64,000 nt of DNA from an uncultured virus (IMG/VR IMGVR_UViG_2663763407_000004) (lineage: Duplodnaviria > Heunggongvirae > Uroviricota > Caudoviricetes), in the IMG/VR virus record IMGVR_UViG_2663763407_000004, positions 1 through 64,000 of that record, one strand, 5' to 3'. Numbering within the stretch: position 1 is the first letter of the stretch; every line of letters begins with the position of its first letter. The position numbers and the translations under genes are program-made. Shown in pieces: positions 3,055-20,300 of the stretch. Below the pieces are notes generated by a model. That model was not told where the DNA came from. It worked only from the letters and a program-made list of their open reading frames with translations, and ran no database searches.

Positions 3055-3111
3055 GACTTTTTCCTTTTCGATAAAAGAAAGCCACGGAACGTGTTGATTT
3101 CGTGGCAGTGA

Positions 3112-3189
3112 TTATACGTTCAGATAACCACTGCTTTTAGCTATTCGAGGATGGAACATCAGCGGACAACGGAAATAATTTATATTCAT
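3112..3189 (-). CDS. Putative leader peptide (25 aa) of acetyltransferase gene
   Basis: AGGTGG RBS, MNINYFRCPLMFHPRIAKSSGYLNV*, followed by gccacg..cgtggc hairpin and T-rich run. Confidence 0.45.
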   Translation of the reverse strand: MNINYFRCPLMFHPRIAKSSGYLNV

Positions 3190-3454
3190 AAAAACCACCT
3201 TTTAGCTTATTTTAAGTAGATTTTCTCATATGTTCAATTGTGATTTTTTATAACTAACCTTTTAACACTAGAGTTGCCTACCGCTACGTAATGGGTATTT
3301 TTGATCCCAGCCCAGTTTGGGCTGAAGATGGGCATTTTTGTCTGGGTAGCTTCAACCTCCACGTTAAACAGCAACCAGATTAAATCATAGGGTTACATCA
3401 AAGTACAACTAAAGAGTTATTTATATAATTAAACCTTTGATTTATAATCTTGAT

Positions 3455-3874
3455 ATGAAAGAAGAAAAAAGCTCACTGGAACCGCCTATTGCGGCTCGAC
3501 TTTATCACTTAATGAATAAAACCGGCGTGAATAAGTCGGGGCTTGCTCGTATCTGCGGAATAACTCCTCAAGCCGCTGGTCGCTGGTTCACGAAAGGAAA
3601 GATAAGCAAAGATTCGGCATTAAAATTATCTGAAGCCTTTGGTGTTTCCCTTTCCTGGTTGCTAAGTGATGAAACGGATAACCCAGAGCTCCCCACCGTC
3701 TCAGAAGTCGTTTTAAGTGAAAGACAAAGGGAATTGCTGAATTTGTTTGACCGACTACCTGAAAGTGATAAAGACAATTATATTGAAGCACTTAGGACCA
3801 AAGTTGAGAACTACGACAGGTTATTCAATGAGCTATTGAAATCCAGAAATATCAAAGAATTATCCTTAAAGTAG
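3455..3874 (+). CDS. Cro/CI-type HTH repressor (DicA-like)
   Basis: NKSGLARICGITPQAAGRWF HTH; TATAAT at 3443-3448 just before ATG suggests a leaderless mRNA. Confidence 0.85.
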   Translation: MKEEKSSLEPPIAARLYHLMNKTGVNKSGLARICGITPQAAGRWFTKGKISKDSALKLSEAFGVSLSWLLSDETDNPELPTVSEVVLSERQRELLNLFDRLPESDKDNYIEALRTKVENYDRLFNELLKSRNIKELSLK

Positions 3875-3902
3875 AAACAATAGACAAAATAAATCACCAA
3901 TG

Positions 3903-3926
3903 AAACCAGCTCTTGCTGGTTTTTTC
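3903..3926 (+). terminator. Intrinsic terminator
   Basis: aaaccagc-tctt-gctggttttttt. Confidence 0.7.
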
Positions 3927-4188
3927 GTCTAAACTTCAAAACATTAACCCTATGATTGATAATGAAGTAAAACTAATGATTGATATCAATATAACTCTAT
4001 GATTTAATCCACTCATCAACGGCACAGCAGCCGCTTAGGTGAGCAAGTTCTGACAATCTGAAAGCAGATAAATCGTGAGTAAAGCATAATTTTTGGAATA
4101 AGAATGGAATATAAAAAGATAGACTAAATAACAACTCCATCAATATAATCAACTCACTCATACACCAATTTATATAAGGAGGATTGCC

Positions 4189-4272
4189 ATGTTGACCCGT
4201 GAAATGTTTTTAGTTTCGCTCGTCCTTAGCGATCGTCATTGCTCAAGCATTACTGGTATCGTGCTGCGATAA
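4189..4272 (+). CDS. Putative leader peptide (27 aa) of ABC-F gene
   Basis: Strong AAGGAGG RBS, MLTREMFLVSLVLSDRHCSSITGIVLR*. Confidence 0.55.
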   Translation: MLTREMFLVSLVLSDRHCSSITGIVLR

Positions 4273-4384
4273 CCTGCTTGAGCGAAGCTAACTAAACAAT
4301 CTGAGAACTTCCCTCCGGCTTACCGGTTATCGTCAGTAATTTTTGACGATAGGCATTTTTATGCCTGAAATCTGGATAAGCATC

Positions 4385-6124
4385 ATGAGTACATTACTTT
4401 CTGCACAATCTGTCAGCTACGACAACACCTTCGGTCCGTTACTGGCTGAGATTTCTTTTAGCCTGAAAAAAGGCGACCGCATCGGCCTGATTGGGCATAA
4501 CGGCTGTGGCAAAAGTACCCTTCTGAATATCCTCAGCGGTGCACTATCTATGACCTCTGGCACCATCACAACAGCAAATCAATGCTTGATGGCCACGGTA
4601 GAACAGCATCTGCCCTGCGCATTAAACGAAGCTACGTTGATAGATGCGGTGCTCAATCATCTGCCGGGCAGCCTGCACCAACCGGAACGCTGGCAAGCCG
4701 AAGTCCTACTCGCCACACTGGGTTTTGAGGAAAACGTATGGTCACTGACTGCCGCAACTCTGAGCGGCGGGCAACATACGCGCCTGCTGCTAGCGCGAGC
4801 TTTGATCCGCCAGCCGGATTTACTGCTGCTGGATGAGCCCAGTAACCACCTGGATTTACCAACTCTGCTATGGCTTGAACAGTTTCTACAAAATTGGGGA
4901 GGCAGCTTTGTACTGGTATCGCACGACCGCAGCCTGCTCGACCGCGTGACCAACTGCACCTGGATCTTGCGCGATAAAACCCTGCAATTTATTCGTCTAC
5001 CCTGCTCACAAGCCAGGCTGGCGTTAGAAGAAAAGGATAGCGCCGATGCTCATCGCCATCATGCAGAACAAAAGGAGATCGACCGAGTAGCGAAAAGTGC
5101 CAAACGGTTGGCTATCTGGGGCAGCGTGTATGACAACGAAAAGCTGGCTCGTAAAGCCAAGCAGATGGAGAAACAAGTTGATCGAATGAAGGAAGATCAA
5201 ACTCTATTAACGGCCGGCAATCAATGGCAATTGCGGCTCAATGGTGAAGCATTGCCTGCTGATCGTGTGCTGGCACTATCTGATTTGCAGGTGCGTCCTG
5301 CGCCGGATGCACCTGTTTTATTCGAACTGGATGAAGTTAGAGTAAAAAGTGGCGATCGCATCGCGCTAGTTGGCCGCAATGGCTGCGGTAAGTCATCGTT
5401 ATTACATAGCTTATGGCAGGAATTTAACCAGCCAGAAACCTCCGATGCGGGTATAGTTTTTCATCCAAAAGTCCGTATGGGATATTACGATCAAAGCCTA
5501 CATCAATTACACGATGACGATTCAATCAGCGACGCGCTGACGCCTTTTGCACCATTGACGGAAGACCAGCGAAAAATGGCGCTGATTGGTGCGGGCTTCC
5601 CTTACCTGCGGCATCAACAAAAGGTAAGTACCCTAAGCGGTGGTGAACGTTCACGGCTGCTGTTTATCGGCTTAACACTGGCAAACTATTCGTTACTGCT
5701 ACTGGATGAGCCGACCAACCACCTCGATATAGAAGGTAAAGAGGAACTGGCGGAAACACTAAAAACGTTCAAAGGTGCAGTATTATTGGTGTCACATGAC
5801 CGCATGCTAATTGAGCAAAGTTGTAATCGCTTCTGGTTGATCCACCAACAACGGCTCGAAGAGTGGCACGACCTGGCTCCGGTTTACAACATTCTGGCCG
5901 ATAAACCAGTAATAGCGCCGAGTTCAAGTTCAGCCATTGCTACAGCTGCTATTACCACCCTCATGAAAAGTGAGGAAGATTATTTGCTGACAGCCTTGCT
6001 GGATCTGGAGGCCAAACTGGCCGAGGATTTGGCGCGGAAACCTAAACACCAAAAAATCACATTACAACGTGAGTGGCAGCAACAAATCGACGAGCTTAAT
6101 AGTCTGCTAGGTTTAAGAGAGTGA
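4385..6124 (+). CDS. ABC-F family ATP-binding protein (ribosome-associated)
   Basis: Two NBDs (GHNGCGKS, GRNGCGKS; LSGG; LLDEP), helical linker, no TM domains; start could be 4343 or 4361. Confidence 0.9.
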   Translation: MSTLLSAQSVSYDNTFGPLLAEISFSLKKGDRIGLIGHNGCGKSTLLNILSGALSMTSGTITTANQCLMATVEQHLPCALNEATLIDAVLNHLPGSLHQPERWQAEVLLATLGFEENVWSLTAATLSGGQHTRLLLARALIRQPDLLLLDEPSNHLDLPTLLWLEQFLQNWGGSFVLVSHDRSLLDRVTNCTWILRDKTLQFIRLPCSQARLALEEKDSADAHRHHAEQKEIDRVAKSAKRLAIWGSVYDNEKLARKAKQMEKQVDRMKEDQTLLTAGNQWQLRLNGEALPADRVLALSDLQVRPAPDAPVLFELDEVRVKSGDRIALVGRNGCGKSSLLHSLWQEFNQPETSDAGIVFHPKVRMGYYDQSLHQLHDDDSISDALTPFAPLTEDQRKMALIGAGFPYLRHQQKVSTLSGGERSRLLFIGLTLANYSLLLLDEPTNHLDIEGKEELAETLKTFKGAVLLVSHDRMLIEQSCNRFWLIHQQRLEEWHDLAPVYNILADKPVIAPSSSSAIATAAITTLMKSEEDYLLTALLDLEAKLAEDLARKPKHQKITLQREWQQQIDELNSLLGLRE

Positions 6125-6179
6125 GGACTAACGGATTCAAAAGTTTTTAACTCAAATATCCGCTGGGTGTATGACCAAT

Positions 6180-6209
6180 AAGCCTCATCAGTTTCTGATG
6201 GGGCTTATT
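6180..6209 (+). terminator. Hairpin/terminator after ABC-F
   Basis: aagcctcatcag-ttt-ctgatggggctt. Confidence 0.5.
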
Positions 6210-6585
6210 CCATGCTTTCAGGTTGCTGGCTCCCACAAAAATCAGTACCAGTAAACATAAATCGCCAACTAGACAGTATAACTCTCGCCATAATTTCAAA
6301 CTATTTTCAGAGCCTCGCTCGCTATAATCCTAGGGTATTACCTGTGACAACATTCACCGTTATCTATCTGGATTCCCATAGAAATGAGTGGGTAAAAATT
6401 TCGCCGGTTGAACCTGGCTAAAATAATCAATGTAGAAACCATGGCCGGACATCGATTATTTATTTTTTTATCAGAGATAAGAAAAATATTTACTCCACGA
6501 AAAGGCTAAATACAGAGCTTTCTTGTAGAAAATCTATTGAGCAATAGATATGCAGTGGCACTGCTTTAGTTAACACCATAAGGAA

Positions 6586-7189
6586 ATGGATATGAGTCTT
6601 AGCTTGCCTGGCAATGATTTGTATTACCTGCCACGTGATAATCTTCCCCCCGAAGAGTATGAGCGCATAATAAGCGCGTACGCCGCATGGTCACGTATCT
6701 GCCGTGAGTATGAATTTGATGACCACAATAATAATGGTCGTTACATTATTAATATGCGTGAAAATAGGGCAGCCTCGCATTCGAGAGCATCTCGTGGGGC
6801 TAGGGAAAAAGACAAACTGGAAAAAATGGTATTTTCCGGCGATGTTGTCATGCTTAGCGACATTCATGGCCCTGCCAAGCTATTTTACATTGATGAAAAC
6901 GGTAAGCTGATTTGCACCGATCCACTTGGTTTTCGTTTTGATGGTGTGAAAAAGATTATCGCTGAATTTAATAGCTCGGTGAGTAGAAAAGATTATAGTC
7001 ACTCTGAAGGAAAACCACGACCAACACAGGTTCAGCGTTTGGTACGTGCTTCTGTACCTGATTTGCCAGCACAGCAAGCCTTCCGTACTATTAACACCAA
7101 GGCTGCCGGAGCGACTGCTGGCTGCCGGAGGCGTTTACAACGGAAATGTTGAAGGTTATACGAAAACAGCCCAAGATTTAGGCGGTTAA
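6586..7189 (+). pseudogene. Frameshifted N-terminal part of a polymorphic toxin
   Basis: After a frameshift near 7110 the sequence reads RLLAAGGVYNGNVEGYTKTAQDLGG*, a linker seen in enterobacterial polymorphic toxins. Confidence 0.55.
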
Positions 7190-7205
7190 GCAAGCTAAAG
7201 CAAAA

Positions 7206-7493
7206 GTGTTAGCTGACGGTACTAGAGAAACGTTCCCTAATGGAAATATGGCGGATGCTCATGCCGAAATAGGTGCTCTTCAACAAGCACATGAAGCTGG
7301 GGTCTCGAAGGGAGCCGATATAAACATGGTTGTGAGCGGTAAAGATGTCTGTGGTTACTGTAGAGGCGAGTTTACTTCAGCCGCAAATGCCGCTGAAGTA
7401 AACTCGCTCACTATACATGCTGTCGATAAATATGGTGACCCAGTAAAATACACATGGGAAACAGGAATGAAATTTATCAAGGTGGCTAAATGA
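7206..7493 (+). CDS. Cytidine-deaminase-fold toxin C-terminal domain (probably truncated)
   Basis: HAE..(27 aa)..VCGYC zinc deaminase signature. Confidence 0.75.
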   Translation: MLADGTRETFPNGNMADAHAEIGALQQAHEAGVSKGADINMVVSGKDVCGYCRGEFTSAANAAEVNSLTIHAVDKYGDPVKYTWETGMKFIKVAK

Positions 7494-7900
7494 ATAAAGA
7501 TATGGTGTTAGGCGGTTATTTCTTTAGCCCTTCTGGTGATAGGGAACAGTTAAAACCTTTAAAGAAGCCTTCTGAGGATGACTTACTCCAAGTCCTTGAA
7601 CTTTTCCGTGATAACGTTGGTGTGTTGGGTATGAAAAATAACGCTTGTGACGATATCGGTCCTGAAGAGTTATCTTTATACACTGAATCTGGACGCTATA
7701 TGTTGTTGCTAGGTAAAAATGATTGTGATGGTGAATATAACGTCAGGACGTTGCACAACCTAAACTCACCAGGTGGCTTGCAGCTTATGCACGGTGAACC
7801 TTATGGAGCATCAACTATAGTTGATGATTTTGATCCGGTGATCACTGCTTTTCGAGAGTATCTAGCTGCTGGTAATGTATCGACAGACCTCCTTTATTAA
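7490..7900 (+). CDS. Putative immunity protein of the deaminase toxin
   Basis: Acidic 136-aa ORF whose start overlaps the toxin stop codon by 4 nt. Confidence 0.65.
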   Translation: MNKDMVLGGYFFSPSGDREQLKPLKKPSEDDLLQVLELFRDNVGVLGMKNNACDDIGPEELSLYTESGRYMLLLGKNDCDGEYNVRTLHNLNSPGGLQLMHGEPYGASTIVDDFDPVITAFREYLAAGNVSTDLLY

Positions 7901-8229
7901 TATTGCTTAAGTCATCAAAATGGCGATCCAACCCAGCGCCATTGCTAGGTTTTCGTGCTTGATCCCGACATCGTAATTACTCCAATAACGCGTCAAAACT
8001 CATGCTTTATTAACGCGTCAAGGATATCCGAATTGGTAGTTTTGAGATTTATTAACGCCAATAAATTGGATGAAAACATCATGCTGCAGATGATTATATT
8101 TTTTGAGATAACTTAGATAATTAATTGACAAGCCATATAACCTTATATTTAACAAAGTATTATTTATTAAAATTATGGGGATATAACAACATTCATAAGA
8201 AAACCGCATTATTAGACAAGAGATAAAAA

Positions 8230-8640
8230 ACATTGACACCCTCATGAAATATCCGTTGACCAATCAGTTCTGTCTTTAGAGCTACCATGGTTTTTATAAC
8301 ACCGAAACTTCCCCCTGCGGCGTGGAGTTCTGTATTCATTCCCTCTTCGGGAAAATTCTCAATTAAGATATCCTCGCTACTTTTATTTTTAAATCTCTCG
8401 CTCATAAAATATTCATATCAATAGCATTCCCTTCGGCATGTCTGATTCTTAATGATGGCGCTACGTTAAGCCCTCTCATACAGTACACTTTTACCATATT
8501 CTGTGTAGCTTTAATGCTTTTCGCAGTGTCCATACTGCCATCGATCTTTTAATGCGCCCATTGGATGCAAACACCCGTTTCAACCCGTACATATTCAGGC
8601 TTGGCAAGGTTTTTTGATATTTTACAAGACCAGTGCATCA
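8230..8640 (-). pseudogene. Decayed M15-like peptidoglycan peptidase/effector relic
   Basis: Fragmented frames include RHAEGNAIDM (HxxGxAxD) and GMNTELHAAGGSFGVIK. Confidence 0.3.
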
Positions 8641-8776
8641 AATAAACCCTCTCTGGGGGATTAATGTTGCAAATATAATTACTGCCGCGCAAATCTTATT
8701 AATTTAGATATAAAATTATCAATGCTTATTTTAAATGACGGACTTAATAATGAATTCCCTTTAGAAGTATTGTTAT

Positions 8777-9403
8777 CTATATACCAATGATAATACTCAA
8801 CGTCATTGAACCATCTATTTTAACATTCTCTGTAATGGGGCCTTTCATATCAGCAACACTGCCAAGTCTCGGCATGACTTCAATATCAGCACTGAATACT
8901 TTTCCTGGTGCTTTTTTTGCATTAGCATGGACCCAGCTCAGCCCATTCAGTGGCCCAATGCTTAATGATAAAATAGCCGCAGCGGCTTCTTCCTGTTTAC
9001 GGAAATATTTTGCAGTACCATCAACCTTTGCATTTGAAAAATAAACGCCGTAATCACCTATTTTTCCGGCGCCATTAACAAAACCTAATCCATAGCGACC
9101 TCCGGACGTGCTACTGCCAGCACGGTTATCGCTACCGGTCACGCTAACGTAGGTTTCAGCATCACAAATTACTGACCAGTTTTTGGTTATTGAAGGCAAT
9201 ACGGTGAGTGCCGAAGGTTTAACAGTATGCCCTGCAATTTCACCGACGTTATAGACTCCGCCGTCTGGAGCCATGACAATACAACCAGGGGGGCTCACCT
9301 GACCTTTGACTGTTAATTCTGCTGTTGGTGCTTTTGCGTTTGCTGCATTGAAGCCAAAAATCAAATAAGACAGTGCTGTAAGTGCTATCAGTTGCTTTTT
9401 CAT
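8777..9403 (-). CDS. DUF1120 / fimbrial-like exported protein
   Basis: Signal peptide; AELTVKG..PPGC, C.AET..DNR.GS and IDGSMT motifs. Confidence 0.75.
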   Translation of the reverse strand: MKKQLIALTALSYLIFGFNAANAKAPTAELTVKGQVSPPGCIVMAPDGGVYNVGEIAGHTVKPSALTVLPSITKNWSVICDAETYVSVTGSDNRAGSSTSGGRYGLGFVNGAGKIGDYGVYFSNAKVDGTAKYFRKQEEAAAAILSLSIGPLNGLSWVHANAKKAPGKVFSADIEVMPRLGSVADMKGPITENVKIDGSMTLSIIIGI

Positions 9404-10644: not shown

Positions 10645-10883
10645 TTATTGATGCTGCAATATGAATTAATCAGTCCCCAAACCGACAGTCAATGAAGAGC
10701 GTATTTGGTTGCTCTTCATTGGTAACGATTGTCAGATTATAATTTAGGTATATATACCGCTATAGTAGGCTAAGTAAGGCCATGCTTTAGAGTAATCAGG
10801 TATATATTCATTCAGGTCAGACATAAAAATTGATAACCTGAATGATTTTTGGATTTTATTTTAAATAATAATATTAAAACCTT

Positions 10884-12980
10884 TTAACCTTTTAACCTTT
10901 TTCGAGTTTGCATCAATTGCTGCTGCTTAACAGATAGCTCAAGCATTGAGTCAATGCGTTGTTTATCCTTATAATCTACAGGAAACATATAAACATGATG
11001 TATAATCATTTCTTTCAATATCCGTATGCAAACCGGGTTACCCTGAAGTTTACTTACAGCATAGGTAATTGAGTCGATATCCAACCGCCTCTTAAACTGA
11101 AGTTGGATTGCTTGCTTCAGTAAAATCTCAGCAGGGGTAGGCTCTTCACCACCAATTTCATTGTAAATTTCCGATGCTTCTTTCGAGCCAATGGATGATG
11201 CTATTTTTCTTATGACACCATTAATTACTCCATATGTCATATGTAAAAAGAATTTAGTAGCTTCTTTCTTTATTTGTTCATCAGTAAAGTTGGGATTTTC
11301 ACTTAATGTTACTTCAACTAATTTTACAACTTCATGTTTCGCTATATCTGAAAGACAAATGAAATAATTTAAGAATCGTAATCCAGTTTCAGAACCATTC
11401 ACTGTTAAGTTAAGGAGAGTATCTCTTGTCAAGGTAGCATGTCTATTGCGAACGATCTGACCAGCAATTTCCATACCTTTAAAAGTTTTGTTAATTTTTG
11501 CTAAAATATCATTTTCTTCAAACTCACCTAGCTCATTTGCATTATGTTCTATTCTATCGAGTAACTGATGATGATTTTTTCTTTCTTCTCTAACCTCCCT
11601 TTGCTCCATGATTAAGTCAGGGATTTGAGCAATAAATGCACTTAAAAATGTTAGTTGTGTTGTTGATAGCACCGCTGGTTTTTGGTCGGCAAACAGGCAA
11701 GAAAGAGTAGACTTTATTGACTCCAGAACCCATTTATCTTTGGTGTGGTGAGTAACAAAAACCAATATATTTGCATAATCCTCTCTGTGAAGATTGCTCA
11801 ATATTACTTTGGTATTTTCACAAACATTAGTATCTGTTGAATAAGATTCTGCTATTTTTTTTGCAGTAAAAAAGTAGTAAAGATATGGGTATTTGAATTC
11901 TGTTTTACCGTTTTTCAATGTTAGTATGGAATTAGATCTTAACCTTCCGATGACAGTATTTTCATCAACACCAAGATATATTTTTGAATAATGATCAAAA
12001 AATTCGTTTAACTCTCGAGTATTGAGTCCATCTTGATTTAAATGAATAGCCCATGCAAGCTCTGTTAATACGTTTAAATAGCGGTCAACTTCATTTTTAG
12101 GAATGCCTGAGCTATCAAATGCCTGATAAACAAGCTGCTGGTAACAATGACCATGTGATGTCAATTCAAGATTTTGCTGAGTATATGCCTCAAACATTTG
12201 TAATAAAATAAGGACATAGATAGGCTTTGGAGGAACTATATTTTTCCTAATAATAGCATCAAGTCTAGAGTTAAAATCATCACACTCCTCAAAAAGAGTC
12301 TCCTCTGATATTGATTCTTCTACCCCAAGGGAGACCCATTTCTCAACTATTTCAGCTCTCTTCTGATGCCCAAAACCGCGTAGTTCAAACTGCTTATAGT
12401 TGTTAAGTTCTGGAATCTCTGCTGTTATCAAAATAAAGGATGAATTACATGTTATAATAATATAGTTAAATTTTTCTGCTAAAGATGAAAGAAAGAATGC
12501 TCGAAATTTAATGTTTAGGCTAATATGGTCTAAATCATCAATAAGAATAGCTGTTTTACCGCTTATCAGATACTCATCAAATGTCACGTTAGAGTATTGT
12601 TCTTTCAAAGTATCTTCAAAGCATTTGGCCAATTCGGAACTCTTGATGTTTCTCGCATCAAAATAGATAGGTTGTATACCCAACTTAAGGAGTTCTTTAT
12701 ATGTCTGCTTTAGTAAAGTAGTCTTTCCTTGTTGCTCCTCTCCAGAAATTATATATAACCCTTCCTTTTCAAAAACAATATTTGAACTAAAAATCTTTGA
12801 AGATATTATCTTTTCATTTTTATCATAATAATCAAGAGGTTGAATATCACAAGGCACGTAGATATTTGAAAGATGAAGTTTATCTACGCTTCGGTGAGTT
12901 AAGATAACTTCTGTGTCTTCAATCCATGAAAGTATATTCTCGGTTGGCTGTATAGTTTTATCATCAACTACAGTCAGGAG
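10884..12980 (-). CDS. STAND/NACHT-like P-loop NTPase, in -1 frame relative to upstream TIR
   Basis: Walker A SGEEQQGKTT, Walker B ILIDDLD; frame stays open from the A9 tract to the stop; AT-rich. Confidence 0.8.
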   Translation of the reverse strand, partial: LLTVVDDKTIQPTENILSWIEDTEVILTHRSVDKLHLSNIYVPCDIQPLDYYDKNEKIISSKIFSSNIVFEKEGLYIISGEEQQGKTTLLKQTYKELLKLGIQPIYFDARNIKSSELAKCFEDTLKEQYSNVTFDEYLISGKTAILIDDLDHISLNIKFRAFFLSSLAEKFNYIIITCNSSFILITAEIPELNNYKQFELRGFGHQKRAEIVEKWVSLGVEESISEETLFEECDDFNSRLDAIIRKNIVPPKPIYVLILLQMFEAYTQQNLELTSHGHCYQQLVYQAFDSSGIPKNEVDRYLNVLTELAWAIHLNQDGLNTRELNEFFDHYSKIYLGVDENTVIGRLRSNSILTLKNGKTEFKYPYLYYFFTAKKIAESYSTDTNVCENTKVILSNLHREDYANILVFVTHHTKDKWVLESIKSTLSCLFADQKPAVLSTTQLTFLSAFIAQIPDLIMEQREVREERKNHHQLLDRIEHNANELGEFEENDILAKINKTFKGMEIAGQIVRNRHATLTRDTLLNLTVNGSETGLRFLNYFICLSDIAKHEVVKLVEVTLSENPNFTDEQIKKEATKFFLHMTYGVINGVIRKIASSIGSKEASEIYNEIGGEEPTPAEILLKQAIQLQFKRRLDIDSITYAVSKLQGNPVCIRILKEMIIHHVYMFPVDYKDKQRIDSMLELSVKQQQLMQTRKRLKG

Positions 12981-13435
12981 TTTTTTTTTGAGTCATCTAA
13001 GGACGTTATAGCTTTTCTTATCCCCTGAATCACCGTTAGCCATGCTTCATCTTCATCTTCCCATTTTGTGACTGCCAAAGCATCTTTAGGAAGTGCTTGA
13101 AATGAACCAAATGGACTATGAGCCCAGTCCGATGATCTTACAATAACGGGAATCAAAACAGCTTCCCCACGCTCATGCTTTCCAATTGCGGTTTTCACTT
13201 CAATATTTTGACAATATTCTGAAGCAAGAAAGCTAGCCGATATAAGGAATAAAATTATTTCTGCATCCCTAAGATTTTCAGATATTTCATTTTCCCAATT
13301 CTGTCCAGCTACAAGCTTTCTATCATTCCACGTCTCAATTTGACCATTTGTTTTCAATGTTGAAAGATGGTCTTCAAGAGAGTCCTTATGTGTTTCATCT
13401 TTGTGTGAGTAACTAATGAAGATTTTGACGCCCAT
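12974..13435 (-). CDS. TIR domain protein
   Basis: KIFISYSHKD, WNDRKLVAG, LISASFLASEYC..IE motifs. Confidence 0.9.
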   Translation of the reverse strand: MGVKIFISYSHKDETHKDSLEDHLSTLKTNGQIETWNDRKLVAGQNWENEISENLRDAEIILFLISASFLASEYCQNIEVKTAIGKHERGEAVLIPVIVRSSDWAHSPFGSFQALPKDALAVTKWEDEDEAWLTVIQGIRKAITSLDDSKKNS

Positions 13436-13468: not shown

Positions 13469-13497
13469 CTTATACTTATAAGCATTTTAGTTTGCAA
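13469..13497 (-). promoter_or_regulatory. Putative sigma70 promoter of TIR locus
   Basis: TTGCAA-17bp-TATAAG. Confidence 0.4.
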
Positions 13498-13498
13498 C

Positions 13499-14154
13499 GG
13501 CTTTGTTGAATAAATCGAACTTTTGGCCGTAGTCAGGATCAGATCACCACACTCCTGATCCTGCAGCGATATCCCGTGGCAAAACAAAAGTTCAAAATCA
13601 CCAACTGGGCTACCTACAACAAGGCGCTCATCAATCGGGGCTCACTGACATTCTGGCTTGATGAGTCGGCCATTCAGGCCTGGTATGACGAGCCCAACAC
13701 GTCTTCACGTGGTCGTCCGCAACGCTATTCTGATCTCGCTATTTCCACCGTACTGATGCTCAAACACGTCTTTCATCTCACACTACGCGCCGCTCAGGGA
13801 TTCATTGATTCCATTTTTACCTTAATGAAGCTCCCGCTCCGTTGTCCAGATTATTCCTGCGTCAGCAGGCGGGCTAAGTCTGTCTGTATCCCTTTCAAAA
13901 ACACCACACGCGGCGAGATTGCCCATCTCGTTATCGATTCCACCGGCTTAAAAGTCTTCGGTGAAGGCGAATGGAAGGTGAAAAGCGCGGTCAGGAAAAG
14001 CGCCGCGTCTGGCAGGAACTGCACCTTGCGGTGGACGCCGGTCCGTGCCTTAAACAAAATGACGCGTGCAGGGATGCCAGAAAGTGTGCGGATTGCTTGA
14101 GTAGGTCAGTGACGGAAGGCGCTTTTATCTAAATCCGATTTATTCAACAAAGCC
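13499..14154 (+). mobile_element. IS5-family (IS903-like) element, internally deleted
   Basis: IRs GGCTTTGTTGAATAAATC at both ends; 9-bp target duplication GTTTGCAAC (13490-13498, 14155-14163); only 656 bp. Confidence 0.92.
13576..14100 (+). pseudogene. Truncated IS903-like transposase
   Basis: MAKQKFKITNWATYNKAL...IDSTGLKVFGEGEW joined directly to the C-terminal ALNKMTRAGMPESVRIA. Confidence 0.85.
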
Positions 14155-14346: not shown

Positions 14347-17300
14347 TCACTTATTAAAATACGGATTCACCCGCTCCACCGCCTGCTGTACCAGTTTATT
14401 TCTGGTTGCCATCAGTCGGTCAATTTTTTCTCTTTTCTGATCCGCTGTGAGTATCCGGTCGCGCCGCATCATTTCAATCTGGGCATTCAGTGCCTTCACT
14501 TGTTTCTGTGTCGCAGTTAGCCCCTGACGCTGCGATAATTTCCCTCTATTTTCCTCTATCAACTCACTGGCATCATCGCCCCGCCCCTGCTTACGGAAGC
14601 TATTAATGGTGCTGTTTATCTGGTTGGCTTCGGTCATCATGCGGTAAAAATCTTCGGTGAACTGGGTAGATTTGGCCGGATCGGAGCCACGGAAGAAGGA
14701 TTTAATCACCGGCATTTCATCCAACCGCATGGCCGGGGTTTCGCCGTAGTCTTTCAGGTTACGCATCAGCAAATTGGTCGCGCCCATCACATAACCACCT
14801 AGGCTGCCGGTGTAGCCCATTACAATATGATCCAGCATCTTCGATGACATATTTGTAGCCTCACCCACTTCGCGCATCAGCAGGCTGGTCTGGTCGTTAT
14901 AACGAGCACCCGCAATCAAATTGCTGTCGGCCATATTCTCAATCGGCCCACCTTTGAAGAAATCATAGTTAACATAAGCCTCGGCAATCGGCATCGCGAC
15001 TTGTGGGATAGGGTTGAATGCCATGGTTTCCATAAAGTTATGCGCCACCAGCTTACCGAATTTAGCCGCGCTATCTTTACCGCCCAGCGCCCGGACAAAT
15101 CGCTCCGGCAAGGTGCCAAACATCAAGCCGATTTCGAACGGTTTGGGGAAACGGATATGCTGATCACCAATCCAGGCATGCCAATAGGTGTCTTTATCCC
15201 AGTCCTGTAGCTCCTCATAACGCTTATCGTCCCAATTCAGCGCCATCAGTGCTAAAGAGGCTGCGGTGATCATGCCGCCGCGTTTCAGTACCTCGCGCGG
15301 GTTCTCTTTGATAGCTCGGCCTAATTTACTCAGCCCCTGCATCCGGGCGTTGAAGAACGGCAGCATATCACTCAGGTTTATCATGATATTACTGGCCCCC
15401 ATCATGCTGAAGTCCATCAAGTCGCGCGACTCAAATGCTGCCTGCGCCTTACTTTTGCCCGATTTAATGGCGGCTTCATAAGTGGCCAGCCGGTTAGCGT
15501 TTTCTGCTGCTTCACTGAGATTTTTGTATTGATGTAACCCCTGCTCGACCTTGCCCATCACCTCTTTGCTGTTGCGGACAATGGACGATTCAAACTCTTG
15601 CATTTGGCTGTCGTTGTAGCCTTTACGCCGCAGCACGCTGCGTATCGTTTTGGCCGTAGACGCGGGATCATAGACATTGGAATAACCCCCGCCGAAAGTC
15701 GCGCCAGCAAACATCATATCCACCAAGCTATCATCGGTGCGTAGGGCTTTTCTAAATCCGGCCCATGAGGCTGTCACTGGCTTAAAGCCATCTTTGTTAA
15801 TGGCCCATGAATGAATCGAGTCACGTAAGAAGTTGCGGATAATAAAATCAGGCATCGATGTGGTACTGACGGTCAGCACCTTTTTCGCCTGACGGGCGGC
15901 TTTCATAAAGATCGAGTTACTGCGCTCAAGGTCAATCATGGTAAAGGCACGATACAGTTCCGGATCATTAACCTGAACCAGCTTTTCCTGCCCATCGATA
16001 AACACCTTCACCACATCTTTGCCGATCCGCTCAAAGTCCATTTTATTCGGTGATTCAATCACCTCCAGCACACCGGTATCCGCAAGATTGACCACTGAGC
16101 GGCGCATCGCCTCGTTTTTCATTGAAGCATCGACCGATTTCGCCACGTAGTTAAACAGGTTTTCGATAGGATCCTTAATGGTCAAATCACTGCCTTTTAA
16201 CTTGCGCACGGTACTGCTCTGGTTAGCAATGCCTTTGCTGGTCCACGGCCCCTTCACCTCGCCATTTTCTGCTTCACGGTAATAAGGCAAGTACCAGGCA
16301 TCCTCCCACTGGGCGCGGCTTTCTGGGTCAATCAATCCCATATCCTGTTGTAGATCGAGAATCGACTTAATAAAGGCATCATATTTTTTCTTCTGACCGT
16401 CGAATAAAGCCTCATTACCCCGGTTAAGGGTTTTCATATAAGCAATTTCGTCGGCATTAAAGTTGTTCTCTTTGCCCTCTTTCATCAGCCGTTCTGAGCG
16501 ATGGCCGGCGATCCATTTAAAGAAGTTTTCCCGATGATTTCCCAGTCCGTCGAGAATGCCCATCAGGGCATCCTCTTTGCCAGTACCGGATTGCCGTTCA
16601 ACTATCCCCTCAGCTTTGTTATAGCGCGGTAAGCCATGCTCTAAGGTGGCGGCGGTAACAGAACCCGCTCCGGCGGCCATCCTCGCCCCAATATAGGCAG
16701 AACTACGGGCATCATTGATACCGGCGGCATCTTCGGCATATTTCAGCGGAGCCATGCCATCAAAGGTTTTGGTATTGAGTTTACGGCCGGTTTCTTTTAG
16801 CCAGGCTTTCAGTTCCGTTTTGTCTTTGCTGGTCACAGTGGCGTAGAAAGATTTAGCTTTATCCAGTCGGGTTAGCTCAACGTTAAAGCCCATCTTGCGG
16901 TTGGTTTCTGTGTCCATTGCTGGGTTGGCGGTACGGGAATAGAGGGCATCAGAGCGAGAGAAAGTATTATCAAACTCCCGCGTTCCCGGTTGTTCGCCGT
17001 CATACATGGCCGTTTTTTTGAAGCGCCCAGCGACAGTACGCAGAATATTGCGTATTTCGGTTGGGGAGATATCACTCTCATTCATGATGCCGATTTTCTT
17101 CAATGAATTTGTCAGCAGAGAAACGAAACGATCCCACATCGCCCCAAGAGCGGTAAGTTCTGATCGCTCCGCCATATGGGCCAAGAATTCATTAGCCTGC
17201 ATTTCAAGGGACTCATTACGGTAGGATTTATCAACCTCCCGCCAGACCGCCTGAATCTCCTTATTTTTACTGTCACGCGTTTGATGTAGCACGCGCATGA

Positions 17301-20300
17301 TACGGTCATATTCCACATCACCAATAACGGAAGCCAGTCCGTGGTGCGCCAAGACCTCATGACGCAATTTCGCCCGAAGCTCGCGGTCAGAAGTGATGTT
17401 ATCCGCGACCACAATCACCCGGCTCAGCTCTGGCTGATAAATGGCATGAACAGTACCGAATTCTTTCGGGATCCCGCTCGGCATCATGGCCGCTGCCTCC
17501 GCCTGAGTTTGCACCACCTTAACTTTGATTTTGGCCGCGCCATTTAACCTGCGTACCCACGCATCTGCGATGATTTGCGCTCGCCCCTGGCGCATTCCCT
17601 GAGCGGGTTTTTCACCCGCAGCGGTGTAGCCGGTATCTGAAATGACATTGCCTTTATCAATGTCAGTCCCCTGACGCGAATAGAAAGCGATACCTTTAGC
17701 GGTGGGTTTGGTTTTCAAGGTTTGGAATAGGTGATCAAATGCCTGACGCACGCCGCCGTTTAATTCAGCTTCTGTTGGATAGGCATAAGTTTCAGGGTTG
17801 GCGTGTTCGTCAGCTTTGCGCAGGTTAACCAGATAGTCGTTCGTGATACCTTTACTCTGGGCTTTATCCAGCAGGTAGCGTTCAAAGGCTCGCGCTGACA
17901 TTTCCAGTTTAGTTGTCCAATATGCTTTACTTCGCCCACTGTCCAGCAACGCAGCGCGTTCCATCATTCCACTATGGGTAACTTTATCGACGGCGCTCTT
18001 AAAGGCGTCATGCACCTCTTGCCTGACCGGATGGATGATTTCTTGCTTTTTGCCGCTGCTAAATTCATAGCGCGGACGTTTACGGTCGGTAATAAATTCG
18101 GATGAATGCTTACCGGATGCCTCGCCATGGACATCATAGGTACCAAAATAGTTATCCAATGCATGGAACCACTCATGTGCCAGTGAGCCTGCGCCATTAC
18201 CTTTGGTGAGATTGATAACCACTTGCCTAGGCTCATAATGGGCTTTGGCCCCGCCCTTACCCCGCGCGCCAAATGCCAGGCCCAATTCGCCATTCAATGA
18301 CAGCGATTTTGGCGGCACATTCAGTAATTCGGCCATATCAACCAACGAGTCATAAGCATCGTTTAATTCAGTTTGGCGGCGTGCTCCTTCAACATAGTTA
18401 CCAAACTGAACACCTCGGAAACCGAAGGCATCACTAAATTGTTCAGGCGTCACATTACCCTTACGACGCTCAATACCGGTACGTGGCTCATTGGTCGCTT
18501 TGCGTTGTTCCTCCCGAGAGACTTTGCGTAATTTATCCAGTTTGGCTTCTATTTCTGCGCGATTCTCTGCCAGATAAGCGCGTGCCTCGTTGGGTGTTTT
18601 GAAGCCCGCTTTAAGCGGCAAAACGCCCATAGCCCCTTTGTAGCCAATAAACACGCTCTTATCTGCTCGCCGGGTATAGATCTCTAACTTAGCCTGTCTA
18701 GGGACTGCTTTCCCTTTATCACTATTGAGCTGAGTCTCGATAAAGGCCTTGGCTTTGGGTAATAGTTCCGCCATGGATCCCGCTGAAATATTTGCTATCA
18801 CTCCCCTTGGCGTGACCAGCTGATACAGTGTTCTCCCACCGGGATAGCTCTTGCCGTCAAAATAGGTGTAATGACCGGAGTGAACTGAGTACTTCGATGC
18901 TTCGGCCATCTGTTCAGGTTTAAACTGTGAGATTAAATCAACAGTATCGGCGGCAGATCGTAAGGAGGACTTACTGCGAAAAATGGTTTTTATATCGTCA
19001 ACACTCGCATGGCTATTGATAATAGAACTCGCTAAATCACGAACACCCTTAACCTGTTCAGCCCACTGATTAAGCTTATAAGGGGAGCCCGGTTTGGTCG
19101 GGATAAACGAGCGCAATGCTGCAAGCAATGCCAGTTTTTCTGGTTCAATGCCATTTTCATGCATTTTGCTGTAATCAGGGTGTGGGAAGAGTTTCGAAAG
19201 AGGCTGTTTCTTAATTTCTTCGATATCATGGTCGGCTTTCAGTGACTCTGCCAATTGGCCCCATTTATGCTTCGCCGCTCCCTTAAGTTCCTCACCAAAA
19301 TCATCAATTTTTGCGTCCCTGTTTTTGGCTTGACCCACTGGCTCAGGTACGGGTAAGCGGACACCGTACCCCTTTCCTACCGGTTCAATCGTGGCACCCG
19401 GCATCCTGCCCCATTTGGAATACTTAGCGACTTTCTCACTGTTGAAGGGTTTGCCGAGATGCAGTCTTAATTCACCGACTTGCTGCTCACCAGACGCCAC
19501 AACGCCCTCATTAGAGGGCGCTGTTTTCGTATTTTCCGTTGTTGGCTCAGGTGGCAATCGCACACCAAAACCATCACCAACCGGTTCAATCACCGCCCCC
19601 GGCATCTTGGCCCATTTCGTGAATCTGGCTACTTTTTCATTGGGGAATGGCTTGCCGTGGTGCAATCTCAACTCGCCTTGTGGAGTTCCTGATTCAATAT
19701 GCCCCTCTTTGGTTGATGCAATACCGCTATCAGTTGATTTTGCAGGTAATCGCACGCCAAAACCGTCGCCTACTGGCTCAATAACAGCACCTGGCATTTT
19801 TGCCCACTTAGTGAATCTGGCCACTTTCTCATTAGGGAATGGCTTACCGTGGTGCAATCTCAACTCGCCAAGAGTTTCACCTTTTGCATAAGCTTCGGTA
19901 CGTGCATCTATAGGGACACCACCAGCACGCTGACGCTGATCGGTAATCGCTGTTTCAGACTGCGCTCCCATCGCCTCAGTAAAGCGGCGCACATCTTTAC
20001 GCTGCCCTCCCTCAAACTGCGGTGCTTTCCCTGACTGAACATCATCAGGATTAACTACAGGTCCATCAGCAAAGATGATGTTTTTATCCGTAATGGCCTG
20101 CGGATCCGTTTGCCCATCGTAGGTATGGGTTTCTCTGACCGCACCTTGCTGCTCTGCCTGCTCCCTCGGCAAATACACTTGCCCACGAGTCTGTTCCCCG
20201 GCTGTGAATTGTGGCGCGGAACCCGCTTGAGGTTCATCACCTTGAATTGGTCCTGGCATTGGGAAACCTTCACCCGGATGAATATTACCGGGAGCTGGCA

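What the first reader, a model, noticed from the sequence alone, without database searches (positions are those of the whole stretch)
10884..13435. Prophage TIR + STAND NTPase defence locus joined by an A9 slippery site
Seen: the TIR ORF ends ...TCA AAA AAA AAC TCC TGA (T9 on + strand at 12981-12989). The -1 frame is open from there (KLLTVVDDKTIQ..IYVPCD) into the NTPase, which has no convincing start of its own. A_AAA_AAC is an X_XXY_YYZ heptamer, and 6 nt downstream is a possible bulged hairpin ctgtagtt..aactatacag. The fusion would be 850 aa. Known: TIR-NLR/STAND proteins are NAD-depleting antiphage sensors. Inference: programmed -1 frameshifting or transcriptional slippage could give both free TIR and a TIR-sensor fusion, or a phase-variable on/off defence switch at the prophage end.
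Basis: partly seen in the sequence, partly recalled or inferred. Interest (0 to 1): 0.78.

Follow-up and report, generated by a model that had tools for sequence, protein, structure and literature searches.

The report
Slippery A-run splits TIR-STAND defence gene
A phage-defence gene that is normally one 850-residue protein is cut in two by a run of nine A's in this prophage, and in the same way in several related enterobacterial lineages, which suggests the full-length sensor-killer protein is made only occasionally, by slipping on the A's.

Summary
A 153-aa TIR ORF (12974-13435, minus strand) ends 5 nt after the only A9 run in the 64-kb window (12981-12989). The -1 frame opens 3 nt before that run and reads into a nSTAND4/NACHT-like NTPase; A10 would give 850 aa.

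It is not an assembly error. Contigs from a 2011 isolate, a gut metagenome and a second organism all show A9.

It is not a one-off pseudogene. 106 of the 120 listed homologues are fused TIR-STAND proteins. The same out-of-frame split at an A9/A10 run sits in the inter-domain linker of at least five DNA-verified lineages, and in each well-sampled one it is the majority allele. Both halves stay under purifying selection, and invariant STAND residues lie upstream of any usable start codon.

No conserved downstream RNA structure exists, and the locus is internal to the provirus, not at its end.

Best reading (0.45): one gene whose full-length product depends on RNA-polymerase slippage or -1 frameshifting at the A-run, with free TIR as the default product. 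DNA-level phase switching, recurrent inactivation and a two-protein system are not excluded. No RNA or protein evidence was obtainable. It is a new variant of a known kind.

The parts
12974..13435 (-). TIR-domain ORF (153 aa), the product of standard decoding. It ends at the TIR domain boundary.
   Evidence: One search gives the ORF. Pfam TIR_2 E 1.1e-17, 65.1 bits against cut-off 28. PADLOC ThsB1 model PDLC00420 E 3.6e-55 over positions 3-151 of 319. Glu79 falls in a column invariant across 60 homologues. In the AF2 model of the fused relative P0132 the TIR fold spans 1-152.
12981..12989 (-). A9 run; with the following C it forms the heptamer A_AAA_AAC in the TIR frame. This is the proposed slip site for RNA polymerase, the ribosome or DNA replication.
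   Evidence: it is the only A9/T9 run in the window. It is unchanged in contigs of three other runs. It corresponds to KKK at residues 153-155 of P0132, inside the low-confidence linker 152-159.
12977..12992 (-). The only stretch where the TIR frame and the NTPase frame are both open. It is bounded by the -1-frame TGA at 12995-12993 and the TIR stop at 12976-12974.
12858..12980 (-). 41 codons of the NTPase frame with no canonical start codon (LLTVVDDKTIQPTENILSWIEDTEVILTHRSVDKLHLSNIY). They can be translated only as a continuation of the TIR ORF, or from a non-canonical start.
   Evidence: One search gives the translation. Columns W171, T175, E176 and H181 of the 60-sequence alignment are invariant and fall in this stretch. 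It forms helix 166-173, with mean pLDDT 86 for residues 161-170, in the model of P0132. No SD-like motif precedes any candidate start.
10884..12857 (-). NTPase ORF as callable from the first GTG (657 aa): NACHT-like P-loop (GEEQQGKT), nSTAND4 domain and a helical C-terminal region.
   Evidence: Pfam nSTAND_NTPase4 E 2.6e-08 and AAA_14 E 4.7e-06. PADLOC PDC-S60 E 2.3e-83 over 197-902 of 906. NCBIfam DS8_antiphage E 1.2e-164 over 305-993 of 994, below cut-off. Foldseek on the proxy model hits NLRC4, NOD2, NLRP3, Avs4, EfAvs5 and RPP1.
13496..14100 (+). Context: a remnant of an IS903-like (IS5 family) element that begins about 60 nt upstream of the TIR start codon. It may have displaced or replaced the native promoter.
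   Evidence: The transposase ORF 13576..14100 is 174 aa and matches only positions 4-137 of a 309-position PHROG and Pfam DDE_Tnp_1_5. A 22-nt stretch at 13496-13517 recurs inverted in the contigs (table 8). IS903 matches appear.

Best explanation
This is one antiphage gene of the TIR + nSTAND4/NACHT-like (bacterial NLR-like) kind, not two genes. By analogy with characterised TIR-STAND and Avs proteins (inferred, not tested), the helical C-terminal region would sense infection, the NTPase would drive oligomerisation, and the N-terminal TIR would deplete NAD+.

A run of nine A's sits in the disordered linker between the TIR and the NTPase, and the NTPase part lies in the -1 frame. Standard decoding therefore yields only a complete free TIR domain (153 aa). 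I propose that the 850-aa sensor-effector is made from the minority of transcripts into which RNA polymerase inserts one extra A at the run. A -1 ribosomal slip on A_AAA_AAC (A_AAA_AAG in a sister allele) may contribute.

This would keep a potentially self-toxic abortive-infection protein at a low, fixed dose. Occasional replication slippage to A10 produces constitutively fused alleles.

Shown: the anatomy, its recurrence in five lineages, its majority-allele status, and purifying selection on both halves. Inferred: that slippage occurs at a useful rate, that the fused product is the active form, and the dose-limiting purpose.
For: (1) Real sequence. A9 with no indel appears in contigs of a 2011 isolate, a gut metagenome and a second organism. 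12 isolate runs from 6 studies hold all sampled words of the stretch.

(2) The ancestral form is fused. 106 of the 120 listed homologues are 836-906 aa with a TIR Pfam domain.

(3) The same break recurs. The NTPase lies in the -1 frame at an A9 or A10 run in the window, in an Enterobacter-type lineage (L023, L024, L039), a Yersinia-type lineage (L026), an E. coli/Citrobacter-type lineage (L027, L028, L043, L053, L064) and an environmental lineage (L046, L059). On the tree these need at least three origins or long retention.

(4) Among 34 metagenome loci with a determinable state, 7 of 7 split loci carry an A-run of 8 or more at the break, against 3 of 27 fused loci (Fisher p 2e-5).

(5) The split is the majority allele.
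- Enterobacter type: TIR-only P0125 is on 142 contigs; the fused P0132 is on 1 (15 of 31 cluster members listed).
- Citrobacter type: the 'EKKN*' tail is on 64+22+2 contigs; no fused form is listed.
- Window lineage: 16+5+1 contigs are split; none is fused.

(6) Purifying selection acts between loci that share the same out-of-frame state.
- L027 vs L053: dS about 0.9, omega 0.08-0.14.
- L027 vs L064: 22 synonymous to 12 non-synonymous changes.
- L023 vs L024: 6 to 3.
- Window vs X14: 7 to 8.
- The last three pooled: p 1e-8 against a neutral 25% synonymous share.

(7) Invariant residues W171, T175, E176 and H181 lie between the run and the first canonical start. No SD-like motif precedes any candidate start in 5 of 6 loci examined. 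Start positions are not conserved between lineages.

(8) The run falls exactly in the low-confidence inter-domain linker, so the short product is a whole TIR domain.

(9) Precedent. Runs of nine A or T are the length at which bacterial RNA-polymerase slippage becomes evident, and they are used for expression in Shigella mxiE, Thermus dnaX and IS elements (PMC1088944, abstract and Background read). A_AAA_AAC is the proven IS1 -1 frameshift motif with no established stimulator (PMC4066793, passages read).
Against: - There is no direct evidence of slipped mRNA or of a fused protein. The one RNA run laid 0 reads and is no test.
- No significant or conserved downstream RNA structure was found, and no upstream SD-like element, so an efficient classical -1 frameshift is unlikely.
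- The tract is polymorphic at DNA level among near-identical sequences. L066 is A9 where L027 is A10, which puts the NTPase in the +1 frame. P0230, P0143, P0147 and P0157 indicate the same variant. P0132 is fused where P0004 is split. A hypermutable tract that flips often would also give omega below 1 and shared states without any RNA-level recoding.
- The Yersinia-type locus L026 carries a second frameshift at a T6 run inside the NTPase, a sign of decay there.
- Within the window lineage the 7:8 synonymous to non-synonymous ratio is only weakly non-neutral (p 0.057).
- Contig counts may be inflated by clonal sampling.
Confidence: 0.45

Rival explanations
1. DNA-level phase variation only. The A-run is a contingency tract. 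Cells are usually OFF (A9), and rare replication slippage to A10 switches the whole gene ON heritably, with selection acting only on ON cells during phage attack. No meaningful RNA-level or ribosomal recoding takes place.
For: - Tract length differs between near-identical sequences. Fused P0132 and split P0004 have tree branch lengths of 0 and 0.0037.
- L066 (A9) and L027 (A10) differ by 1 synonymous change in 409 compared codons.
- Fused P0002 sits inside the otherwise split window clade.
- This model also explains omega below 1 and the absence of a conserved RNA stimulator.
Against: - ON alleles are very rare in the samples: 1 contig against 142 in the Enterobacter type, and none listed for the window or the E. 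coli/Citrobacter types.
- The minor E. coli/Citrobacter allele (A9) moves away from the in-frame length rather than towards it.
- An A9/A10 run is expected to cause RNA-polymerase slippage anyway (PMC1088944), so a purely DNA-level switch is hard to isolate.
Confidence: 0.2
2. Recurrent inactivation. The fused gene is costly or self-toxic. The A-run is simply its most mutable site, so independent lineages have each recently lost one A and carry a dead gene that has not yet decayed.
For: - All breaks are at the longest homopolymer.
- L026 has a second frameshift at a T6 run.
- The window-lineage polymorphism is 7 synonymous to 8 non-synonymous, only weakly non-neutral.
- The IS903-like insertion 60 nt upstream of the TIR start may already have disturbed expression.
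Against: - It requires the same one-base loss to have become the majority allele independently in at least five lineages.
- Loci sharing the identical out-of-frame junction differ at dS about 0.9 with omega about 0.1 (L027 vs L053), and at 22 synonymous to 12 non-synonymous changes (L027 vs L064).
- Apart from L026, neither half has acquired stops in any of the loci read.
Confidence: 0.2
3. A genuine two-protein system. The free TIR and a separately initiated NTPase (from a non-canonical or downstream start) act together non-covalently, and the A-run is irrelevant to expression.
For: - Both ORFs are intact and under purifying selection.
- RefSeq annotates the E. coli locus as two ordinary CDS.
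- An ATG at the 'CDM' position is shared by L024, L026, L027 and L053.
Against: - The window itself has ATT at the shared ATG position, and its first canonical start is GTG at 12857.
- No SD-like motif precedes any candidate start in 5 of 6 loci.
- Invariant residues W171, T175, E176 and H181 and a predicted helix would be lost.
- The -1 frame stays open back to the run in every lineage.
- 106 of the 120 listed relatives are single chains.
Confidence: 0.1
4. Sequencing or assembly error: the true sequence is A10.
For: Homopolymer miscounts are common in some sequencing chemistries.
Against: - A9 is present in contigs from three further runs, including a different organism with 17 substitutions.
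- 12 isolate runs from 6 studies dated 2011-2025 hold all sampled words.
- The TIR-only protein with this tail is on 16 contigs, and its A9G sister allele on 5.
Confidence: 0.01

Closest known systems
Single-chain bacterial TIR-STAND / NLR-like antiphage proteins (PADLOC candidate PDC-S60; Pfam nSTAND_NTPase4; compare the TIR-NLR of P4 satellites in Rousset et al. 2022, PMC9122126, and Avs/AVAST proteins)
   Same: The order is the same: N-terminal TIR, a NACHT-like P-loop NTPase, then a helical C-terminal region. PDC-S60 matches at E 2.3e-83. Foldseek hits NLRC4, NOD2, NLRP3, Avs4, EfAvs5 and RPP1. 106 of the 120 listed homologues are one 836-906 aa chain. The gene sits in mobile-element accessory regions: next to a P2 gpA-like gene in L024 and next to an integrase in L027.
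   Different: Here, and in several enterobacterial lineages, the chain is interrupted by an out-of-frame A9/A10 run in the linker. The Rousset TIR-NLR is described as carrying TPR repeats, and its sequence was not compared here.
DS-8 (DefensePredictor, PMC13092281; NCBIfam NF053861)
   Same: The NACHT and C-terminal part is clearly homologous: E 1.2e-164 over profile positions 305-993 of 994. DS-8 is an experimentally validated single-protein defence whose NACHT residue is required (passages read).
   Different: The DS-8 effector is an N-terminal metallophosphatase, while this gene has a TIR instead. The score of 549.6 bits is below the 790-bit cut-off. This is an effector-swapped relative, not a member.
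Programmed transcriptional slippage genes (Shigella mxiE, Thermus thermophilus dnaX, IS elements with 9A/9T; Baranov et al. 2005, PMC1088944)
   Same: A run of nine or more A in the sense strand lies inside the short overlap of two ORFs. One untemplated base fuses them into the longer product, as described for mxiE. The run and the frame relation are conserved among homologues.
   Different: mRNA heterogeneity has not been shown here. The tract length itself also varies at DNA level between near-identical strains.
-1 programmed ribosomal frameshift sites of E. coli dnaX and IS1 (Sharma et al. 2014, PMC4066793)
   Same: The heptamers are A_AAA_AAC (window, as in IS1), A_AAA_AAG (X14 allele and L024, as in dnaX) and A_AAA_AAA (L026), each in the upstream frame.
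   Different: No conserved downstream stem-loop and no upstream SD-like stimulator was found.
Thoeris ThsB
   Same: The TIR ORF matches the PADLOC ThsB1 model PDLC00420 at E 3.6e-55.
   Different: None of the 13 neighbouring ORFs scanned carries a ThsA-type (SIR2/SLOG or Macro) domain. The match covers only the first half of the model, and the natural partner is the covalently linked STAND module. An automatic call of Thoeris here would be a mis-annotation.

Membership tests
TIR-STAND / bacterial NLR-like single-gene defence (PDC-S60-like, nSTAND4) | N-terminal TIR domain with the conserved catalytic-type glutamate | tested here: met
   Pfam TIR_2 E 1.1e-17. Glu79 (…YCQNIE…) occupies a column invariant in 60 homologues. 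That this Glu is the catalytic one is recalled from knowledge of TIR NADases, not tested.
TIR-STAND / bacterial NLR-like single-gene defence (PDC-S60-like, nSTAND4) | STAND/NACHT-type P-loop NTPase with Walker A, followed by a helical sensor region | tested here: met
   GEEQQGKT is present and is invariant or nearly invariant in the alignment. PF24406 and AAA_14 pass their cut-offs. PDC-S60 matches at E 2.3e-83. Foldseek on the model of the fused relative P0132 hits NLRC4, NOD2, NLRP3 and Avs4 at E 1e-7 to 5e-7.
TIR-STAND / bacterial NLR-like single-gene defence (PDC-S60-like, nSTAND4) | Effector and NTPase encoded as one continuous ORF | tested here: not met
   The window has two ORFs in different frames. 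It is met in 106 of the 120 listed homologues.
TIR-STAND / bacterial NLR-like single-gene defence (PDC-S60-like, nSTAND4) | Confers phage resistance; NAD+ depletion on activation | not testable with these tools
Only the related DS-8 NACHT family has published validation.
DS-8 (NF053861) | N-terminal metallophosphatase effector; whole-protein score above 790 bits | tested here: not met
   The match covers only profile positions 305-993, and 549.6 bits is below 790. The N-terminal domain here is a TIR.
Thoeris (ThsA + ThsB) | A ThsA (SIR2/Macro-SLOG) gene adjacent to the TIR gene | tested here: not met
   A Pfam scan of 13 ORFs of 110 aa or more between 1 and 25068 found no SIR2, SLOG or Macro domain. 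Smaller ORFs were not scanned.
Programmed transcriptional slippage site | Homopolymer of nine or more A/T within the overlap of two ORFs, such that one untemplated base fuses them | tested here: met
   The length criterion comes from PMC1088944 (abstract read).
Programmed transcriptional slippage site | Run and frame relation conserved among diverged homologues | tested here: met
   Five DNA-verified lineages carry A9 or A10 with the NTPase in the -1 frame. There is one minor A9 variant in the +1 state (L066).
Programmed transcriptional slippage site | Heterogeneous run length in mRNA exceeding that in DNA | not testable with these tools
   The only RNA run offered laid 0 reads on the stretch, so this is no test.
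-1 programmed ribosomal frameshift (dnaX / IS type) | X_XXY_YYZ heptamer in the zero frame | tested here: met
   A_AAA_AAC in the window. A_AAA_AAG in the X14 allele and L024. A_AAA_AAA in L026.
-1 programmed ribosomal frameshift (dnaX / IS type) | Conserved downstream structure and/or upstream SD-like stimulator | tested here: not met
   Fold z-scores are -1.55, -0.33, +0.26 and -1.25, with unrelated structures. No SD-like motif was seen upstream of the run on reading the sequences. IS1-type sites are reported to work without an established stimulator (PMC4066793).
Phase-variable contingency locus | Hypermutable repeat in the ORF with ON and OFF alleles among near-identical strains | tested here: inconclusive
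   Length variants exist: P0132 against P0004, and L066 against L027. ON alleles are 1 against 142 contigs in one lineage and absent from the listings of two others. No switching rate is measurable here.

The most novel reading that the evidence does not exclude
The out-of-frame A-run is a conserved recoding device that makes two functional products from one NLR-like immune gene in a fixed ratio: abundant free TIR domain and rare full-length TIR-STAND sensor. On phage sensing, the few full-length molecules would nucleate an oligomer that recruits the free TIR pool. This would amplify NAD+ destruction while keeping the autoactivation-prone sensor at a safe dose. It would be a bacterial counterpart of sensor/helper dosage control in eukaryotic NLR immunity.
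Probability: 0.15. Interest if true: 0.85.

Novelty: new variant of a known kind. Interest (0 to 1): 0.62.

Why it matters
Annotation. Hundreds of enterobacterial assemblies annotate this locus as two unrelated genes, 'TIR protein' and 'NACHT protein'. Defence-finding tools will score it as broken, as an orphan, or as Thoeris ThsB.

Biology. If the split is a maintained slip-dependent arrangement, these strains carry a working NLR-like defence that current catalogues miss. It would also be a natural example of how bacteria might throttle a self-toxic abortive-infection effector, by requiring a rare polymerase or ribosome slip rather than by transcriptional control.

Testability. It offers a tractable system in ordinary E. 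coli strains, with natural A9, A10 and fused alleles available. These can be used to ask how expression dose and free effector domains affect NLR-type immunity.

Wider use. The comparative signature used here can be applied to other 'pseudogenised' defence genes. That signature is the same frame break at a homopolymer in diverged lineages, purifying selection on both halves, and invariant residues upstream of any start.

Tried and rejected
- RNA evidence. No listed holder of the stretch is on record as RNA. The one RNA run offered by species label (X23) laid 0 reads, so it is no test of expression or slippage.
- Near-identical DNA in annotated collections. Megablast of the locus against E. coli genomes, plasmids and phages matched only the IS903-like end. 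tblastn against phages found nothing, and against plasmids only relatives at 21-31% identity.
- Species-representative genomes. The scan returned 22 loci, none enterobacterial. Only 10 of them contain the exact motif used for frame analysis, and all 10 are fused. The other 12 were not analysed.
- Sampling Enterobacterales genomes around the E. coli locus. This was not possible: the window is a virus record and records reached through loci get no relatives.
- Promoter and terminator scan. 16 promoter-like sites against 11.6 expected, and 3 terminator-like sites against 1.6 expected; uninformative.
- Earlier findings of this scan. Nothing was found by sequence.
- Sequence search of solved structures. 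It matched only the TIR part.
- Literature. Searches for a poly-A or frameshift split in TIR-STAND or NACHT defence genes listed no paper on it. That covers only the open-access library searched.
- Rejected readings. Thoeris was rejected because there is no ThsA. DS-8 membership was rejected because the effector differs and the score is below cut-off. The 'prophage end' placement was rejected.
- Unverified labels. The 'split' label given by length alone to P0050, P0059 and P0114 in the tree was not verified, and these rows are not counted as lineages.
Full report
**Observation**

On the minus strand a 153-aa ORF (13435..12974) ends ...TCA AAA AAA AAC TCC TGA. The nine A's occupy 12989-12981. 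They are the only A9 or T9 run in the 64-kb window. Shuffles expect 2.84 such runs, so the run itself is not improbable, but its position is.

In the -1 frame a TGA lies at 12995-12993, 3 nt before the run. From there the frame reads LKKKLLTVVDDKTIQPTENILSWIEDTEVILTHRSVDKLHLSNIYVPCD... and stays open for 702 codons to 10884. The two frames are therefore both open only over 12977-12992, which contains the run. One extra A gives 152 + 698 = 850 residues. The first canonical start codon in the NTPase frame is GTG at 12857, 41 codons downstream of the run, with no Shine-Dalgarno-like motif.

**What the two halves are**

The upstream ORF is a TIR domain:
- Pfam TIR_2, E 1.1e-17.
- Glu79 sits in a column that is invariant in 60 homologues.

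The downstream frame is a NACHT-like STAND NTPase:
- Walker A GEEQQGKT is present.
- Pfam nSTAND_NTPase4 and AAA_14 both pass their cut-offs.
- PADLOC candidate single-gene system PDC-S60, E 2.3e-83 over positions 197-902 of 906.
- NCBIfam DS8_antiphage, E 1.2e-164, but only over positions 305-993 of 994 and below the cut-off.

DS-8 is a validated single-protein defence whose effector is an N-terminal metallophosphatase (PMC13092281, passages read). The gene here is therefore an effector-swapped relative, not a member.

The TIR also hits PADLOC's ThsB1 model at E 3.6e-55. However, none of the 13 neighbouring ORFs scanned carries a ThsA-type domain, so this is not Thoeris.

An AlphaFold2 model of the natural fused relative P0132 (82% identical in the NTPase part; mean pLDDT 78.4) shows four features:
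- a TIR fold at 1-152;
- a low-confidence linker at 152-159 that contains the KKK encoded by the A-run;
- a helix at 166-173;
- the P-loop domain and a long helical C-terminal region.

Foldseek places the model with NLRC4, NOD2, NLRP3, Avs4, the SIR2-STAND EfAvs5 and the plant TIR-NLR RPP1 (E 1e-7 to 1e-5; low TM-scores, as expected for a multi-domain chain).

**Not an error**

- Twelve isolate runs of one organism, from six studies dated 2011-2025, hold all sampled words of the stretch.
- Contigs of a 2011 isolate (X10) and of a gut metagenome (X13, 3 substitutions) show no indel at the run.
- Contigs of a second organism (X14, 17 substitutions) also show no indel there. X14 changes the base after the run, giving A9G, i.e. 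A_AAA_AAG and the tail KKKS*.
- TIR-only proteins with these tails are on 16, 5 and 1 contigs.

**Not a one-off**

Of the 120 best homologues listed, out of 450 significant among 7,998 scored, 106 are 836-906 aa with a TIR Pfam domain. The family norm is therefore a single chain. The closest relatives are different: most are NTPase-only ORFs of 653-692 aa, each with a matching TIR-only ORF whose tail ends just after a KKK or EKK.

DNA was obtained for five lineages. In every one the NTPase lies in the -1 frame relative to the TIR, at an uninterrupted A-run:

| Lineage | Loci | Junction |
|---|---|---|
| Window | window | TC-A9-C |
| Enterobacter type | L023, L024, L039 | TC-A9-G |
| Yersinia type | L026 | ATT-A9-GCC |
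| E. coli / Citrobacter type | L027, L028, L043, L053, L064 | GTG-A10-CTAAC |
| Environmental | L046, L059 | A10 |

Further TIR-only tails are known as proteins only:
- KKKF*, KKKPNL*, KKKP* (Serratia marcescens) and KKKHHR*;
- EKKNLS* (Rouxiella aceris), DEKKNS* and QEKKN*.

In an unbiased pull of 36 metagenome loci by a motif just downstream of the junction, the states were as follows:
- 27 loci are fused.
- 2 are cut by contig ends.
- 7 are split, 6 in the -1 state and 1 in the +1 state.

All 7 split loci have an A-run of 9-10 at the break, against 3 of 27 fused loci with a run of 8 or more (Fisher p 2e-5).

**Phylogeny**

The tree used 104 of 122 candidate rows. The other 18 were left out because the Walker A anchor did not match or fewer than 550 residues followed it. 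The method was the quick one (LG+G4, SH-aLRT support).

A starred clade of 13 rows holds all enterobacterial forms. Within it:
- The E. coli/Citrobacter split pair is sister to a fused protein without a KKK (P0011).
- The Yersinia-type locus is sister to the window clade.
- The window clade holds 5 split and 2 fused rows (P0002 and P0132).
- The environmental split P0104 sits elsewhere, among fused proteins.

The split has therefore either arisen several times or been retained for long periods with occasional reversion.

**The split is the majority allele where sampling is deep**

- Enterobacter type: the TIR-only protein P0125 is on 142 contigs. NTPase-only forms are on 60, 23, 12 and fewer contigs. 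The fused P0132 is on one contig. Only 15 of the cluster's 31 members were listed.
- Citrobacter type: the EKKN* tail is on 64 + 22 + 2 contigs. A one-A-shorter variant (P0230) is on 3. No fused form is listed.
- Window lineage: 22 contigs, all split.

These counts are of contigs, not independent events, and clonal sampling may inflate them.

**Selection**

- Window vs L024: synonymous sites are saturated while dN is about 0.1 in both halves.
- L027 vs L053 (E. coli and Citrobacter types) share the identical out-of-frame junction. They differ at dS about 0.9 with omega 0.075 (TIR), 0.14 (8 linker codons) and 0.10 (NTPase).
- Closer pairs sharing the same state: L027 vs L064 gives 22 synonymous to 12 non-synonymous changes, and L023 vs L024 gives 6 to 3.
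- Window vs X14 gives 7 to 8.
- These last three pooled give p 1e-8 against a neutral 25% synonymous share. The window pair alone gives only p 0.057.

Both halves have therefore been under purifying selection across divergences spanned by loci that are all out of frame.

**The stretch between the run and the first start is translated, or has been until very recently**

- It holds four invariant columns (W171, T175, E176, H181) and five nearly invariant ones, and it forms a predicted helix.
- Between the window and L024, the 24 compared codons give omega about 0.09.
- Between the E. coli and Citrobacter types it differs by an in-frame one-codon indel (TTSSSS against TPSSS).
- Candidate start codons fall at different places in each lineage. 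None has an SD-like motif, except a GAGG that is simply the Glu-Asp of the conserved motif in L024.

**Mechanism**

No significant or shared RNA structure follows the run (z -1.55, -0.33, +0.26 and -1.25 in four lineages). No SD-like element precedes it. A dnaX-style stimulated frameshift is therefore unlikely.

Runs of nine A or T are the length at which selection against RNA-polymerase slippage becomes evident in many bacterial genomes. They are used to fuse ORFs in Shigella mxiE and in IS elements, and to make two dnaX products in Thermus (PMC1088944, abstract and Background read). A_AAA_AAC is the proven IS1 frameshift motif and has no established stimulator (PMC4066793, passages read).

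I therefore commit to untemplated insertion of one A by RNA polymerase as the main route to the 850-aa protein. Unstimulated -1 ribosomal slippage is a possible contributor. The free TIR domain is the default product.

The tract also changes length in DNA on short time scales:
- P0132 is fused where the near-identical P0004 is split.
- L066 is A9 where L027 is A10, which puts the NTPase in the +1 frame.

Heritable switching therefore certainly occurs. Phase variation alone could explain the selection signal, and I cannot separate the two without RNA or protein data.

Against a purely functional picture, L026 carries a second frameshift at a T6 run inside the NTPase. That lineage at least appears to be decaying.

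**Context**

The window's record is a provirus of 65,907 bases. The locus lies in an accessory island (about 2.4-14.1 kb) with these features:
- On one side: antiterminator Q and endolysin (4-1659).
- On the other side: a 2,549-aa large polyvalent protein and a Rha regulator (14347-22676).
- Inside the island: a hexapeptide transferase, an HTH regulator, a two-domain ABC ATPase, and DUF6911 and DUF1120 proteins.

The locus is internal to the provirus, not at its end. A truncated IS903-like element starts about 60 nt upstream of the TIR start codon. Relatives sit next to a P2 gpA-like replication gene (L024) and next to an integrase beside rcnR in E. coli (L027). Both are typical defence hotspots on mobile elements. 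Rousset et al. describe a validated single-gene TIR-NLR from P4 satellites (PMC9122126, passages read), but its sequence was not compared here.

**Novelty and verdict**

Poly-A slippage sites and phase-variable defence genes are known kinds, and TIR-STAND defences are known. I found no report in the open-access library searched of a conserved out-of-frame homopolymer separating the effector from the sensor of an NLR-like defence gene.

It remains unproven at the level of RNA and protein. I rate it a new variant of a known kind, interest 0.62.

Noticed in passing
window 13496-14100: A truncated IS903-like (IS5 family) element abuts the TIR gene. Its transposase ORF is 174 aa against a 309-position profile, and a 22-nt terminal repeat at 13496-13517 lies only about 60 nt upstream of the TIR start codon. 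It could supply or destroy the promoter of the defence gene.
   Followed up: partly
window 14347-21996 (-): A 2,549-aa large polyvalent protein (Pfam LPD1, LPD5, LPD38; weak PHROG match to DarB-like antirestriction) lies next to a Rha-like regulator. It is a candidate injected anti-defence protein of the prophage.
   Followed up: no
window 2410-9403: The accessory island beside the TIR-STAND locus holds a hexapeptide acyltransferase, an HTH regulator, a 593-aa ATPase with two ABC_tran domains (weak AAA_21/AbiEii-type and NACHT hits), and DUF6911 and DUF1120 proteins. These may be further defence or moron genes.
   Followed up: no
window 10860-10895: The NTPase stop lies in a tandem 8-nt repeat (AAAAGGTT three times on the coding strand). 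The gut-metagenome contig X13 carries one extra unit inserted behind 10877, just after the stop. This is a second slippage-prone site at the 3' end of the gene.
   Followed up: no
L026 5690-5700: The Yersinia enterocolitica-type copy has a second frame break at an A4T6 stretch inside the NTPase (534 + 118 aa). This suggests decay in that lineage, or a sequencing error in that record.
   Followed up: partly
L066 (metagenome) versus L027: An E. coli-type allele is one A shorter (A9 instead of A10). This extends the TIR ORF to 170 aa and puts the NTPase in the +1 frame. The 704-709 aa annotated proteins P0143, P0147, P0142 and P0157 start with (M)KKKL or MV(T/A)LVKKKL and correspond to this state.
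   Followed up: partly
L001 and L042: Fused relatives carry an in-frame A9 in the same linker: Marinospirillum (FKPKKNAG) and a metagenome contig (DSKKKVEK). L045 and L063 carry A8. Long A-runs in this Lys-rich linker therefore arise repeatedly and are not always out of frame.
   Followed up: partly
window 12974-13435: The PADLOC ThsB1 model PDLC00420 matches this TIR at E 3.6e-55 over only the first half of the model. Automatic pipelines may mislabel these orphan TIR ORFs as Thoeris ThsB.
   Followed up: partly
L027 4417-9420: In E. coli the split TIR/NACHT pair sits directly after a tyrosine integrase inserted beside rcnR. A serine recombinase and a DEAD/DEAH helicase lie downstream. This is a small integrative island, possibly satellite-like, present in 3 of 5,426 complete E. 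coli genomes.
   Followed up: no
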